A stretch of DNA of 63,929 bases, counting the filler, from Octopus bimaculoides (taxonomy: Eukaryota), in the NCBI RefSeq assembly GCF_001194135.2. It is 3 parts of 3 records of this genome, joined end to end, with 100 filler letters (N's around TTAATTAATTAA, not from the genome) between each part and the next. Parts side by side here need not be neighbours in the genome. Positions count along the whole stretch, not along the records: positions 1 to 21,318 come from NC_068990.1; positions 21,419 to 47,522 come from NC_068981.1; positions 47,623 to 63,929 come from NC_069002.1. The stretch is one strand, 5' to 3'. Both the position numbers and the translations under genes were made by a program. Below the pieces are notes generated by a model. That model saw nothing but the letters and a program-made list of their open reading frames with translations. It was not told the DNA's origin and did not search any database. How positions within the stretch are numbered: the first letter of the stretch is position 1; every line of letters starts with the position of its first letter. Positions 3,471-58,356 of the stretch are shown here, piece after piece.

Positions 3471-3553
3471 AACTCTGATGAGATTCGACTTTTAAATGGT
3501 TTCAATTATGGTAATTAATTTCTAAATGTCTGGAATTGAAACAGCTGTCAGAG
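3471..3553 (+). ncRNA. Minimal type I hammerhead ribozyme motif (PLE-type), long stem II, weak stem I
   Basis: CTGATGA 3475-3481; imperfect stem II 3482-3537; GAAA 3538-3541; palindrome ACAGCTGT 3541-3548; GUC triplet 3547-3549. Stem I is only 2 bp (CT/AG). Confidence 0.6.
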
Positions 3554-3619
3554 ATAATGTCTATTTTTTAATCAATAAATAATTATTGATTATCTCTCTA
3601 TCTTCTTATCTTCTTAAAT

Positions 3620-3922
3620 TATATGTATATATATATATGTGTGTGTGTGTGTATGTATATATGTATGTATATATATATATGTGTGTATTATGTATGTATA
3701 TATGTATGTATGTATATATGTATATGTGTATGTATATATATATGTATATATGTATATATGTGTATATATATATATATATATGTATGTATATATGTATATG
3801 TGTATATATATATATATGTATGTATATATGTATATATATATATATATATATATATATATATATATATATATATATATATAGAGAGAGAGAGAGAGAGAGA
3901 GAGAGAGAGAGAGAGAGAGAGA
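3620..3922. repeat. Compound (TA)n/(TATG)n/(GA)n microsatellite
   Basis: Seen directly; source of several spurious ORFs. Confidence 0.95.
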
Positions 3923-4699
3923 GACGAACCACCACTCTACAACTCAGTCAACGAAGAACTCGTCCAAAACCAATACAATGATATAATGTATAAAAGTATA
4001 AAAGTCAGTACTTGTACATAGACTACGCGCATTTCATGTCTGAATTAGGACTATATAAAATCAAGAAAATTCTATCGAAGTTCATTAGAAAGGAAAAATG
4101 ATTTTACTCCCAAAATCAGTCACTCTTCTGGTCAAATTTAACCTTGTTCACTATAATACTTTATTTCAATATTTTTAGTTTGTAACTTTTAATAATAATA
4201 TTAATGCCATTAACTTATGGATTACTTTACAGGTTTTGTCTCTTTATATATTATTTAAATTATTTCTTATGTTCATTTTTATTTCCTTATAATGCTTTTA
4301 GGTATTTGTTTAGGAATTTGACCTGAAGTGTGATTGATTTTGGGAATAAAATCATTTTTCCGTTCTAATGAACTTGGATAAAATTTTCTTATGATTTTAT
4401 ATAGTCCTAATTCAGCCATGAAACGTGCGTAGTCTATGTACAAGTACTGACTTTTATACTTTTATACTTTTATACATTATATCATTGTATTAATTTTTAC
4501 TGTCCAATTTCTACTTTATTTGATTTTTAGATTAATATTTATTATGATGAATGTTTCTTTGTATGATATATTATATATTATTAAAATTATTAAAATTTTA
4601 GATTAAAATCTTAGATTAGTATTTATATGATATATGTCTCACAGCATGGTTTTGGACGGGTTCTTCGTTGAATAAGTTGTAGAGTGGTGGTTCATCTCT
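3922..4699. repeat. Foldback element with long inverted arms
   Basis: About 3971-4145 is the reverse complement of about 4315-4490 (AATACAATGATATAATGTATAAAAGT...GGTCAAATT). Outer arm 3922-3971 pairs with 4645-4699. An extra stretch of about 155 bp interrupts the right arm. Confidence 0.85.
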
Positions 4700-4804
4700 A
4701 AATTAGTTATATACATATATATTATATATTAAAAATTCGGTCTAATATTATACTGAATTTTACCTGTAAGGTTGGAATAAATTTTTATTCCCTAATATTA
4801 TTAC

Positions 4805-5295
4805 TATGTATATATATATATATATGTGTGTGTGTGTGTGTGTGTGTGTGTGTGTGTGCATATGTATATGTGTATATATATATATATATATATATATATA
4901 TATATATATATATATATATATATATATATATATGTATATATGTATATATATGTATGAATATATATGTGTATATATATGTATATATGTATATGTATGAATA
5001 TATATATATGTATATATACATACGTATGTATATATATGTGTGTGTATGTGTATATATATATATATATGTGTGTATGTATATATATATACGTGTGTGTATA
5101 TATATATAAGTATGTATATATGTACGTATATATACATGTATGTATATGTGCGTTTGTATATTTATATGTATGTATACACATACATGTGTGTGTATATATA
5201 TGTATGCATATAAATAGATATATATATATATATATATATATATATATATATATATATATATATATATACATACATACATACATATATATATATAT
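4805..5295. repeat. Compound (TA)n/(TG)n/(TATG)n microsatellite
   Basis: Seen directly. Confidence 0.95.
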
Positions 5296-7399
5296 GGATA
5301 AACTTCTTTGTAGAACGCTCTTCGTTTTTGTATTGAATAACTTTTCCCCATTTCAACGTTTTTCGTATAATACTCTTCACATCAAAATTGAAGCCTTTCA
5401 TATTTTATCTCTAATTTTACCTTGCTAGTTAGGCTTGTCAAAAACAAGTTAATTATCGGAAAGTTAAAAAAATGTGTTTTTCCATTCTGTTATTATAATA
5501 GAACAAAACCATCTTATCAGTTATTTTCCATTTCGACTTTGGTCGAATTCATATTTTTTATGTATTTTTATTTATTTGTCAAAAGTGCTCAAGACATTGA
5601 GATTGAGTTAAAATATTGTAATCTAATATATATGTCAGTATAAAATCACTAAATGCGCTTGGAAGTACGAATATTTATATAAAAATAGATATCAATTTAA
5701 CTCTACATACAGCGCTGTGTTTTGATAGCTTACTTTGTCTCATGAGTGGAGAAAAAGAGATGCATGTATTCTTGCATGTATATTGAATTATAATAATTTA
5801 GCTCTGCTTCAGAGTATGTAGCTTTCTGTTACTTTTGCATATAGATATATGTTAAAAGATGTATTGAGAAATATTTGGAATAAGGTTACAGTTTTTAAAC
5901 TTGTAAAGTCCTCTTAATAAACAGAAAATATTATATGTAAAAAAATGACGTGAAGGGAAATATCTAGGGACACTTTCTGAGCAAAAACTTTGTAGTTAAG
6001 CAGACACTAGCTTGCTTAGTAGGAAAAAACATGAAATTTTAATTGATTAAAGTTACATCTTTAGTGAAGAACATTTTTTTTTAATATTAATTCTGATAAA
6101 ATTAGTGAAAGCAATGCAGAAATTTTAATTAGTTAAAATTAATTAAATATTGAAGTAAATGAGGAAGGAGTTTGATCTTCAGCATTGTAACAACTTCAGG
6201 CATGTTTCTGCCTAAATATAACACATCAGTGAACCTTAGTCAAACTGGTACCGCAAGATCTTTGAATGGCTATAGAGAAATATATTTTGTGGGAATGAAG
6301 AGTGTTGTAATAGCATAAAAAGATCACTAGTAGGAAATATCCCTTTCTACATCCCATAATCAATAAATTTTAATGAATTACAGTTTCTGGCATATCTTGC
6401 CTGTATTTTCACCATAACTAGGTGCCCTTGTGTACATTCCCTAATCATTCTTTTAAGTTTTTACACCATTCAGTATTGATTTAGGAGAAATCTATATCTC
6501 TCTATTCATTATAAGATATTGTAGACGAGGTTAAATGTTGCTTCACAAGTGAGATCAAATAAGACCAAAACATGTTCAACGTTATTTATCATCATACATT
6601 TAAATATCAGTCTCACTACCCAACAGCATTCCAACTATTATTAATTTTACTTAAAATTTCCAAATTAACTCCCTTGCAGTTTTACCAGAATTAGCCATTT
6701 TGATAATGATTCTTCTCTTTTCTGTCAACATAAACTTAATTAAAATTTCCTGTGTACCACGTGAAGTACACACAGCACTTGCTCTGATATTACAGATTAG
6801 CTGTGTCTGTATACCAAATTTCATGCTTGTTATTCATAAAGTTCAATAGTCAAGAATCAACAGTGGCTAATCAACAACAGCCTCGCCACTGATAAAATGG
6901 ATGTCATTTGGGTATCTATCTACCGTGTAACGTTTCTTCATTCAACAGCTTTTGTGAAATAACATTTCTAAACAGGATGCTTTACAAATTTGGCATCATT
7001 CTCAGATTACTCCCTCATCTACTAGCAAGCCAAATTTCCTTGAAATCTTTCTTCATCCATCTATCCAGATTCAAAGATAGCTGTATTTTTAATCTGTTAC
7101 TTTCTTTCTCTTCCTCTCTTTCTCTCTTTCTTTCTTTCTTTCTTTCTTTCTTACTTTCCCTCTTTCATTCTTTCTCCCACCCTTTCTCTCTCTCTTTTCT
7201 TTCTTTCATTCTTTCTCTCACCCATTCTCTCTTTCTGTCTTTCTTTTTCCTTTACTTTCATCATATAGTATCCCCTTAGCTAGATCTACTAATGACTTGC
7301 TATACTAAGACACGCGTCATTAGTGTCTCGCTCTTGAGAACTTAGGAGCAGGAATGCTTGAGTGATATCCCCACACATGAACTTCATTTATTTCTCTTA

Positions 7400-56729: not shown

Positions 56730-56800
56730 TTTTGTCAAACCATCTAACCCATGCCAGTATGGAAAATGGACACTAAACGATGATGATGATGATGATGATA
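56730..56800 (+). mobile_element. Family C retroposon 3' end with (GAT)n tail
   Basis: AACCCATGCCAGTATGGAAAATGGACACTAAACGATGATGATG. Confidence 0.75.
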
Positions 56801-56839
56801 TATGTATGTATATATGTATGTATGTGTGTGAGTGTGTAT

Positions 56840-57060
56840 CTGTGTATCTTTATGTATGTGTTTGTTCTCCCACCACTGCTTGCCAACCAGAGTTGGCTTG
56901 TTTACATCTCCATAACTTAGCACTTGGTCAAAAAGAGACCGTTATAACGAGTACCAGGTTTTAAAATAATTGGTACTGGGGTCAATTTATTCATCTAAAT
57001 CTTTCAATGTCATGTCTCAGCATGACTGCAGTCCAATGACCCAAACAGACAAAAGATGGA
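56840..57060 (+). mobile_element. SINE family A, diverged 3' half
   Basis: Collinear with 48420-48630. Confidence 0.7.
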
Positions 57061-57559
57061 AGATTGTCTCTAATAAAAATAACCATCAACCTCAGAGATT
57101 AGGCAAACAAGGTTATATTCACTTGAGAATACTAGAAAGCTTAACACTACATCATTTGTACTTTCTTAGGGCTTGATAAAATTTTCTTCCAATTGTTGTT
57201 TTTAGAATGGTGGAATCTTTGGAATTGAAAATGTACAGCACTATTAGAATTTCATTGCTTACTTTCAGGCCTCACTTTTATACATTTTCATCTTTTCTTA
57301 GCGATGGAAAAAAATGCATCTTTAATGTACTTTGTTTAGGCCTCATACCTGACCAAAATAAATTGATTCTCAAAATACATTATCTGTTAATACTTGGTTT
57401 TTGGTGTTGTGTATTTACATCAATCTCCAGGATTCTTTCTTTCATAAATTCATGGTTTATTTTTCTTTTTTCTTTTACAATTTAAACATTTTTATATTTC
57501 ATATTTACTCTTAATATGTTGTGACACCAAGTACCTGAGGTAAAAAGCTGTTTTCTATT

Positions 57560-58050
57560 ACATGTTCCTGTTTTTATAAAATATACAACCTTGTAGATAC
57601 ATGTACAATGCACACACACACACACACACACACACAATACACATAACAGAAACATGCATTATACACAATACATGCACATGCAAATACACACATACAATAT
57701 ATGCACATTGAATATACACGAATACATGCACATGCAATATGCTTAACATGCACAATATATATTAATACCTATGCAAACAATGTATATGCATGTGCATAAT
57801 ATTTATGATGCATAATACATACATATATACAAGACATACACATTATATACAATGCAATAATGTATGCAAATATGCACAATACGCAATACATATGCATACA
57901 ATATGCATAATACATACATACAAAATAGGCATAATAAAAGCACACATACACATGTATATAATACACATGCACACATATTACATGTTTATGATACACATGC
58001 ACATACAGAGTAGGCAGACATATGCAAAACACACATGCATTAAAAACTAA
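57560..58050. repeat. Degenerate (CA/TA/ATGC) low-complexity tract
   Basis: Seen directly. Confidence 0.85.
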
Positions 58051-58310
58051 ATATACAATGGGAAATAGCTAAGAGTGGAGTACTGAATACTGTACACAGC
58101 ATGTAATTTACTGAAGTTTCTCTCCAAGTTGGAGACAACACAAAACCTAACAGCAAATTTTAGAGACCCTCAAGAAAGTGAGAAGATTTTAATTAAAACA
58201 ATTTTCAAATAGATTTTCATCATTAGAGGTGTAATTACAAATCGTCATGGCTAGTGAGTGTGTACAAAAATGCAAAATACTGAACTGTAGCCAAGGTAGG
58301 ACTAATTAAG

Positions 58311-58356
58311 TTATTACTGACGAGGTTTTTAAAGAAGCTGAAAAATGTTGATAGTT
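58311..58356 (+). ncRNA. Highly degenerate hammerhead-like remnant
   Basis: CTGACGA 58317-58323, wobble-rich stem II, GAAA 58340-58343, AATGTT (one change from palindromic CATG-TT). Confidence 0.3.

What the first reader, a model, noticed from the sequence alone, without database searches (positions are those of the whole stretch)
3471..58356. About nine minimal hammerhead ribozyme motifs whose stem III stays palindromic while its sequence changes
Seen: CTGA(T/C)GA - stem II - GAAA - N..U-H - stem I cassettes. Good fits are at 27128(+), 50728(-), 51722(+) and 56602(-). Partial fits are at 3471(+) and 37301(+). Degenerate ones are at 34590(-), 54941(+) and 58311(+). The stem III segments differ (ACAGCTGT, ACGT, ATCGTGAT, ACCTAAGGT, ACATATGT) but are all self-complementary. 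Established: Penelope-like elements carry minimal type I hammerheads that cleave as dimers through a palindromic helix III. Inference: several independent PLE/retrozyme lineages with dimer-acting ribozymes have seeded this region at more than one motif per 10 kb. Transcripts crossing the locus could be cleaved, or could dimerise when two motifs share a palindrome (3541 and 51765 both have ACAGCTGT on the plus strand).
Basis: partly seen in the sequence, partly recalled or inferred. Interest (0 to 1): 0.75.

Follow-up and report, generated by a model that had tools for sequence, protein, structure and literature searches.

The report
Penelope hammerheads, one with tRNA promoter
Eight of the nine motifs are mostly decayed copies of seven common repeat families that carry a likely self-cutting RNA motif of a kind already known from Penelope-type jumping genes; one protein-coding family also has a tRNA-like segment in its end repeat that likely acts as an RNA polymerase III promoter.

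Summary
The motifs are real (3 strict hits against 0.07 in shuffles), but they mark no special locus. The window joins stretches of three chromosomes, and 60 unselected 10-kb stretches gave 12 strict hits (0.6 in shuffles): about 22 per Mb, roughly 20,000-80,000 genome-wide. Eight motifs are copies of seven dispersed families; 58311 is single-copy and unresolved. Four families sit directly behind Penelope-like (PLE) RT/GIY-YIG genes, and one is a 353-nt retrozyme-like unit. Self-complementary stem III holds, as published for PLE minimal hammerheads. Only three window copies pass the strict descriptor. No same-family pair shares a strand, and the proposed 3471/51722 dimer joins different chromosomes and folds poorly. 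The unusual part is family A (27128, 56602), a Penelope/Poseidon-type element. Its 3' repeat starts with a tRNA-like A/B-box head, most head-bearing short copies begin there, and 2.2 kb of its sense strand has no TTTT. Pol III transcription is likely for the short copies and possible for the coding element. I found no such case in the papers searched; this scan noted it before in other genomes. Cleavage and transcription are untested.

The parts
3404..3620 (+). Family D copy (end approximate); hammerhead core 3475-3481, GAAA 3538, stem III ACAGCTGT, H17 C at 3549; stem I only 2 bp
   Evidence: (481 candidates, 40 scored); link to a PLE ORF only suggested (1 of 25 loci, inverted)
27086..27265 (+). 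Family A copy 1, 5'-truncated (no head); core 27133-27139, GAAA 27161, stem III ACGT, H17 U at 27168; passes the strict descriptor
   Evidence: (674 candidates)
34500..35992 (-). Family F: 5'-truncated Neptune-type PLE (ORF remnants 35992-35675 and 35101-34793, linker Zn-finger) with 3' hammerhead, core 34646-34640; 8-nt deletion removes the cleavage site and the 3' strand of stem I
   Evidence: (1679 candidates)
37301..37355 (+). Family E: old, low-copy hammerhead remnant; core 37305-37311, stem III ACACAGTGT, H17 A at 37345; stem I lost
   Evidence: (5 of 5 candidates match)
50606..50852 (-). Family B: truncated copy of a 352-353-nt non-coding unit with an inverted 5' duplication; core 50765-50759, stem III ATCGTGAT (majority ATCGCGAT), H17 A at 50733; passes the strict descriptor
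   Evidence: (1884 candidates)
51561..51960 (+). Family C: 3' end of a Neptune-type PLE (end approximate); core 51726-51732, stem III ACAGCTGT, H17 A at 51773; first stem II pair lost in this copy
   Evidence: (1333 candidates)
52777..55046 (+). Family G: decayed PLE (RT remnants 52777-53378, endonuclease 54330-54611) with 3' hammerhead; core 54916-54922 (G5>A), stem III ACATATGT, H17 A at 54969
   Evidence: (198 candidates)
56552..56722 (-). Family A copy 2; keeps about the last 12 nt of the tRNA-like head and a short AAT tract; core 56642-56636, H17 U at 56607; passes the strict descriptor
58309..58356 (+). Single-copy hammerhead-like motif, one core mismatch (G at 16.1), stem I 8 bp with wobbles, stem II 6 bp; possibly an old relic, unresolved
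   Evidence: 1 candidate, itself; 3 of 500 shuffles reach stem I >=8; post hoc threshold

Best explanation
Eight of the nine motifs are truncated, mostly decayed copies of seven dispersed repeat families, four of which lie directly behind Penelope-like retroelement genes, and they likely mark ribozymes that cut the elements' own RNA as homodimers rather than regulating this locus. Shown: family membership, ORF linkage for A, C, F and G, inverted 5' duplicates, a 352-353-nt unit for B, and a genome-wide density near 22 per Mb. Inferred from published PLE work: stem III is too short to close in one molecule, so two RNAs of one family pair through the palindrome and exchange stem I strands; reverse transcription starts at a fixed site downstream of the hammerhead, so every truncated copy keeps it; copies then decay. 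In family A a tRNA-like A/B-box head sits about 35 nt after the stop codon, and Pol III likely starts there, giving short RNAs that the PLE protein would copy in trans as SINE-like elements (inferred, about 0.7).
For: Families. ORF linkage: A, 28 of 29 ORF-selected loci carry the head and 25 of 29 the hammerhead body, RVT_1 E=1.8e-10, best solved relatives include telomerase RT at weak E=0.002; C, 18 of 19 UTR-selected loci carry the hammerhead and 11 of 19 an upstream same-strand PLE ORF end; F and G, ORF remnants in the window itself, and in 9 of 20 G loci. Inverted duplicates: A 12/30, B 29/30, C 11/30, D 9/25, F 11/25, G 2/20 loci. Majority homodimer MFE equals the double hammerhead for B, F and G. 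11 different stem III sequences among 12 unselected strict hits, 9 with at most 1 unpaired centre base. Core changes 78/1967 against flank 1296/15475 (inflated by how copies were chosen). Family A head: A and B box 33 nt apart in 28 of 29; 25 of 29 head-selected copies begin 3-14 nt before the A box, 9 at exactly 7 nt; 16 of 23 heads in body-selected or incidental loci begin at -6..+8, 6 inside the head, 1 in the ORF; 0 TTTT in 2,199 nt of sense majority (shuffle mean 3.95, P=0.016) against 8, 16 and 5 in F, C and G; summed contig depth falls at the same boundary in runs of four other organisms. Published basis: PMC4209133, PMC11167929.
Against: No cleavage or transcription start was observed. 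The active dimer is not the predicted MFE for the majorities of A, C and D, nor for any window copy. Family A has U at 17, the weakest site (recalled). Published minimal hammerheads cut poorly even as dimers, and the anole one needs protein and is dispensable for insertion in vitro. No ORF was found for B or E, and only one inverted case for D. No full-length family A copy with a 5' repeat was found in 11 extended loci. ARAGORN and Rfam do not call the head a tRNA at normal thresholds. A short hairpin at the head's 5' end could also cause the sharp boundary. The TTTT deficit is modest (P=0.016; P=0.039 on a 246-codon control), and the strand is A-rich.
Confidence: 0.85

Rival explanations
1. 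The hammerhead folds are kept as structural or protein-binding signals for PLE retrotransposition; cutting is slow, protein-dependent or incidental.
For: The anole PLE hammerhead cuts only with protein, mutants still insert, and no read ends were seen at the site. Family D has a 2-bp stem I throughout, and the active dimer is not the MFE for A, C and D. Naiad PLEs proliferate without such motifs.
Against: Catalytic core bases and a non-G H17 are kept in all six family majorities examined, and B, F and G fold exactly as double hammerheads.
Confidence: 0.25
2. One reading: the motifs cluster here and cut or cross-dimerise host transcripts that run through the region.
For: Three intact-looking copies exist. 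C and D share ACAGCTGT and could form 3+2 bp of cross stem I. Family A sequence is abundant in runs guessed to be RNA, so partners in trans may exist.
Against: Three chromosomes; no enrichment; no same-family, same-strand pair in any stretch; the C:D active form is less stable than two monomers; E lies antisense to the one intact host-type ORF found.
Confidence: 0.08
3. Family A's sharp 5' boundary comes from reverse transcriptase stalling or switching template at a short hairpin, or from a Pol II start, and the tRNA-like head is an inactive passenger left by an old SINE insertion.
For: A 4-bp inverted repeat spans the boundary, and many copies invert there. A tRNA-like sequence inside an autonomous LINE is mentioned for RTE-1_DAn.
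Against: 9 of 29 copies begin at exactly the tRNA +1 position; both boxes match the consensus at tRNA spacing; the sense strand lacks TTTT; ORF-bearing copies read through the hairpin.
Confidence: 0.3
4. The motifs are chance matches in AT-rich DNA.
For: Remains possible for 58317 (single copy; relaxed hits in 68 of 500 shuffles) and likely for 22173.
Against: 0 of 300 shuffles reach the strict count; eight motifs belong to repeat families, and damage in the window copies is absent from the family majority in B, C, F and G.
Confidence: 0.02

Closest known systems
Minimal type I hammerheads in PLE terminal repeats (Cervera and de la Pena 2014, PMC4209133; parts 1-2 of 4 read)
   Same: Short stem I, longer stem II, extra base after A9, palindromic stem III, many variable families per genome, mostly solo truncated copies, inverted pairs 100-700 bp apart.
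   Different: Estimated load here 22,000-80,000 (sample-based, my descriptor) against about 9,000 in Xenopus, 4,000 in coelacanth and 2,000 plus 1,300 in Schistosoma; descriptors differ. B, C and F also carry an extra base before G12.
Penelope/Poseidon PLE of the green anole, PAc (PMC11167929; parts 1-2 of 4 read)
   Same: Family A: RT plus C-terminal GIY-YIG-type domain without a linker Zn-finger, hammerhead in the terminal repeat, fixed 3' ends behind it, AT-rich flanks.
   Different: Family A's repeat begins with a tRNA-like A/B-box head and an AAT tract; none is described for PAc in what I read.
Neptune-type PLEs (features from 10.1101/2021.04.23.441226, passages)
   Same: F and C have a Cys-rich linker motif between RT and endonuclease, and a 3' hammerhead.
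   Different: Clade not tested by a tree; Nematis shares the linker motif.
Metazoan non-LTR retrozymes (PMC7229834, passages; bioRxiv 2026.07.22.740005, part 1 of 5 and passages)
   Same: Family B is a non-coding 352-353-nt unit with a type I hammerhead, sometimes longer than one unit.
   Different: Mostly truncated with an inverted duplicate (29 of 30 loci) rather than in tandem arrays; minimal-type ribozyme; circles not shown.
Schistosoma hammerhead SINE-like repeats (via review PMC6765202, passages)
   Same: Pol III promoter followed by a hammerhead in a short repeat.
   Different: In family A the promoter-like head is part of a protein-coding PLE's own 3' repeat, and the short copies are dispersed, not tandem.

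Membership tests
Minimal type I hammerhead of PLEs | CUGANGA / GAAA / UH core with stems I and II | tested here: met
   Majorities of A, B, C, D, F and G; 3 window copies pass strictly; D has a 2-bp stem I
Minimal type I hammerhead of PLEs | Self-complementary stem III with no closable loop | tested here: met
   ACGT, ATCGCGAT, ACAGCTGT (twice), ACATATGT perfect; ACCTAAGGT and ACACAGTGT with one central base
Minimal type I hammerhead of PLEs | Dimer fold favoured | tested here: inconclusive
   Equals the predicted MFE for B, F and G majorities; not for A, C, D or any window copy
Minimal type I hammerhead of PLEs | Self-cleavage after H17 | not testable with these tools
   Only contigs were available
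EN+ Penelope-like element | RT plus C-terminal GIY-YIG-type ORF upstream of the hammerhead | tested here: met
   A, C, F and G. Not found for B or E; one inverted case for D
EN+ Penelope-like element | 5'-truncated copies with an inverted or partial tandem duplicate | tested here: met
   (A 12/30, B 29/30, C 11/30, D 9/25, F 11/25, G 2/20)
EN+ Penelope-like element | Full-length repeat-ORF-repeat copy | tested here: inconclusive
   None in 11 extended family A loci; not sought for the other families
Penelope/Poseidon versus Neptune clade | Linker Zn-finger absent (A) or present (C, F) | tested here: met
   Translations; no tree with named references was built
Non-LTR retrozyme (family B) | Non-coding 150-400-nt unit with type I hammerhead in head-to-tail repeats | tested here: inconclusive
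   352-353-nt period in 3 of 30 loci, two hammerheads in direct repeat in L057, no long arrays; no PLE ORF hit in 30 loci
Non-LTR retrozyme (family B) | Circular RNA | not testable with these tools
   No raw RNA reads were listed for family A; family B was not searched or laid
tRNA-derived SINE (short family A copies) | 5' head with Pol III A and B boxes at tRNA spacing | tested here: met
   28 of 29 (box consensus recalled); not called as tRNA by ARAGORN or Rfam
tRNA-derived SINE (short family A copies) | Defined 5' end at the head | tested here: met
   25 of 29; 16 of 23; depth step in four other organisms
tRNA-derived SINE (short family A copies) | A separate element distinct from its partner | tested here: not met
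   The head is part of the coding element in 28 of 29 ORF-selected loci: it works like a SINE but is the PLE's own 3' repeat
tRNA-derived SINE (short family A copies) | Transcription by Pol III | not testable with these tools
   Indirect only: no TTTT in 2,199 nt

The most novel reading that the evidence does not exclude
Family A is a protein-coding Penelope retrotransposon that captured a tRNA-derived promoter into its terminal repeat and is read end to end by RNA polymerase III. The same promoter spawns thousands of SINE-like hammerhead RNAs that its enzyme copies, in a genome carrying tens of thousands of intact-looking hammerheads.
Probability: 0.3. Interest if true: 0.75.

Novelty: new variant of a known kind. 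Interest (0 to 1): 0.45.

Why it matters
The nine motifs alone are new members of a known kind. Two things go further. First, the load: roughly one intact-looking hammerhead per 45 kb, from many families, offers a natural covariation set for the dimer model and a test of whether such ribozymes cut host transcripts. Second, family A: if its head is a working Pol III promoter, it shows how a SINE-like element can arise from within its own partner, extends SINE-type mobilisation to PLEs, and may be a coding retroelement made by Pol III, which raises the question of how an uncapped RNA is translated. The class 'new variant' rests on family A only.

Tried and rejected
Rfam scan of the window: no hammerhead family at E<=10. 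Pfam found nothing informative on the short window PLE fragments; they were identified with 15 of 21 database homologues, those over 550 aa. ARAGORN: 0 genes in 11 loci; lowered thresholds gave inconsistent calls; the Rfam tRNA model did not hit the heads, so the source tRNA is not identified. RNA: no RNA holder listed for family A; the 14 guessed-RNA runs that hold it are contigs only. Laying four of them showed presence but no ends, strand or level. 58317: no second copy, no PLE ORF beside it. 22173- treated as chance. The unselected hit in L168 resembles family G by eye but shows no blastn homology at the motif. No full-length family A copy in 11 extended loci. A separate-SINE reading of family A (my reading) was dropped. 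My notebook says 10 copies start at +1; the count is 9. Luense et al. on dimer cleavage was not held and is known here only through PMC6765202. Literature searches for octopus hammerheads or a tRNA/Pol III-headed PLE listed no such report. Repbase, Dfam, SINEBase, subscription papers and all supplements were not seen and may hold these families.
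Full report
Layout. The window is three stretches: 1-21318 on G000 C10, 21419-47522 on C1 and 47623-63929 on C22. G000 has 2.34 Gb with about 30 large contigs. An octopus-like animal is likely (recall, and earlier scan notes); I did not test it.

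Observation. All nine sites exist. A type I descriptor found 3 strict hits (27133+, 50765-, 56642-) against 0.07 in 300 shuffles, none of which reached 3. Rfam missed them. The other six are damaged. 3475+ has 2 bp of stem I. 34646- has lost 8 nt across the cleavage site. 37305+ has 1 bp of stem I. 51726+ lacks its first stem II pair. 54916+ has G5>A and a 22-nt deletion. 58317+ has G at 16.1.

Families. Own-genome searches gave these candidate counts, which are not copy numbers (40 scored at most): A 674, B 1884, C 1333, D 481, E 5, F 1679, G 198, and 1 for 58317. The two A copies are 95% alike. In B, C, F and G the damage seen in the window copy is absent from the family majority. Stem III majorities are ACGT, ATCGCGAT, ACAGCTGT (C and D), ACCTAAGGT and ACATATGT. 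Copies intact by my criteria: A 16/38, B 7/33, C 23/39, D 14/28, F 11/31, G 6/19 (loci chosen by likeness to the window copy). Core positions changed less than flanks (78/1967 against 1296/15475), but copy selection and subfamily structure inflate this. For 58317, 68 of 500 shuffles give some relaxed hit, but only 3 reach its 8-bp stem I (post hoc), so it stays unresolved.

What the families are. With 15 database homologues, F lies directly behind endonuclease remnants at 35992-34793, and G behind RT (52777-53378) and endonuclease (54330-54611) remnants; 9 of 20 G loci also have ORF hits. For C, 18 of 19 loci chosen by the upstream UTR carry the hammerhead and 11 of 19 an upstream ORF end on the same strand; two further hits lay downstream and were not counted. 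F and C show a Cys-rich linker as in Neptune-type PLEs. B has no ORF hit in 30 loci, a 352-353-nt period in 3 of 30 loci, and an inverted duplicate in 29 of 30: retrozyme-like. D and E remain unassigned beyond inverted duplicates in D (9 of 25) and one inverted ORF case.

Density. Sixty 10-kb stretches at fixed positions on C1-C29 (523,110 non-N bases) gave 12 strict hits against a mean of 0.6 in 30 shuffles. They show 11 different stem III sequences, 9 of 12 with at most one unpaired centre base. That is 11-39 per Mb, or about 22,000-80,000 genome-wide, if unplaced contigs behave alike. The window is not enriched (P=0.15-0.18). Published counts are about 9,000 in Xenopus and 4,000 in coelacanth, over 6,000 in a coral and up to 120,000 retrozymes in axolotl; descriptors differ.

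Dimers. In the double hammerhead both stem III and stem I form between partners (fold built from the scheme of PMC4209133). For the majorities of B, F and G this fold is the predicted MFE of the homodimer, 6.7-11.8 kcal/mol below two monomers. For A, C and D it is not, nor for any window copy, although B comes within 2.2 kcal/mol. The C:D heterodimer forms 3+2 bp of stem I and is less stable than two monomers, and its window copies are on different chromosomes. No same-family pair shares a strand in any stretch. Published data temper the model: cutting is slow even in dimers, and in the anole element it is protein-assisted and not needed for insertion in vitro.

Family A. Upstream of the hammerhead lie an AAT tract and a head with Pol III A and B boxes 33 nt apart (28 of 29 loci; 4 such pairs in the 523 kb sample, one of them family A and three other SINE-like heads). 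Of 29 head-selected loci, 22 have the hammerhead body downstream; the other 7 run into gaps or other sequence. The head is part of a coding element: 28 of 29 ORF-selected loci carry it about 35 nt after the stop. The ORF has an RT (E=1.8e-10) and a GIY-YIG-type end without a linker Zn-finger. Short copies start sharply: 25 of 29 within 3-14 nt of the A box, 9 at exactly the tRNA +1 (the query favours complete heads). In body-selected or incidental loci, 16 of 23 heads start at -6..+8. Contigs of four other organisms bridge head and ORF, and their summed depth drops at the same place (depth is no copy number). After raised whole-element Pol III reading, I counted terminators: 0 TTTT in 2,199 nt (expected 3.95, P=0.016; codon control P=0.039), against 8, 16 and 5 in F, C and G. 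Against this reading: a short hairpin spans the boundary, tRNA finders do not call the head, no full-length copy was found, and no RNA ends were available. The window's A copies lack all or most of the head.

What is known. PLE minimal hammerheads with palindromic stem III are published (PMC4209133, parts 1-2 of 4 read; review PMC6765202, passages), as are retrozymes (PMC7229834, passages) and their PLE origin (bioRxiv 2026.07.22.740005, part 1 of 5 and passages). Passages of PMC13282606, PMC8967140, PMC6962438, PMC10886601, PMC5786205 and 10.1101/596502 mention cephalopod repeats, SINE origins or non-autonomous Penelope elements, but no tRNA-headed PLE; PMC5786205 notes a tRNA-like sequence in an RTE LINE. 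Eight searches listed no such report; Repbase, Dfam and supplements were not seen. This scan recorded hammerhead PLE ends in this genome and the tRNA-headed Penelope in other genomes (39 notes hold the search words, 8 shown). Those notes are unchecked and are not used as support.

Verdict. The motifs are real but ordinary as a set and not specific to this place. The tRNA-headed coding family is the variant worth testing. Interest 0.45.

Noticed in passing
window 37412-38404 (-): Intact, intronless 330-aa Ser/Thr kinase ORF (Pkinase E=6e-54); looks TSSK-like (recalled). Motif E lies antisense about 60 nt past its stop.
   Followed up: partly
window 27414-28636 (-): A further decayed PLE (RT and downstream remnants), next to but opposite family A copy 1; no hammerhead was assigned to it.
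   Followed up: partly
window 35100-35675 (-): Family F carries a long low-complexity Ser/Asn/Thr-rich stretch between the linker Zn-finger and the endonuclease, shared with L122 and L133.
   Followed up: no
L175 and L215 (unselected stretches): Two copies of a family with an intact CTGATGA box but GCAA in place of GAAA; a possible core variant.
   Followed up: no
L240, L004, L014, L269: A family A subtype has an extra segment of up to about 140 nt between the head and a second AAT tract.
   Followed up: no
L234: A family B copy is inserted, inverted, into the AAT tract of a family A head; a LINE-like and a SINE-like insertion interrupt the same tract in L254 and L248.
   Followed up: no
window 412-972, 2359-3468, 16454-16801, 19778-20662: Remnants of other retroelements: a Gypsy-like gag-side fragment (DUF7083) and LINE endonuclease/RT pieces (the last two recognised by eye).
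   Followed up: no
window 47627-48008, 1200-1425, 11726-11992, 45194-45851, 48395-49369: Many copies of an abundant SINE-like repeat with a central microsatellite, one as a head-to-head palindrome.
   Followed up: no
L177, L195, L219: A second tRNA-like A/B-box head family, unrelated to family A, appears three times in the 523 kb sample.
   Followed up: no
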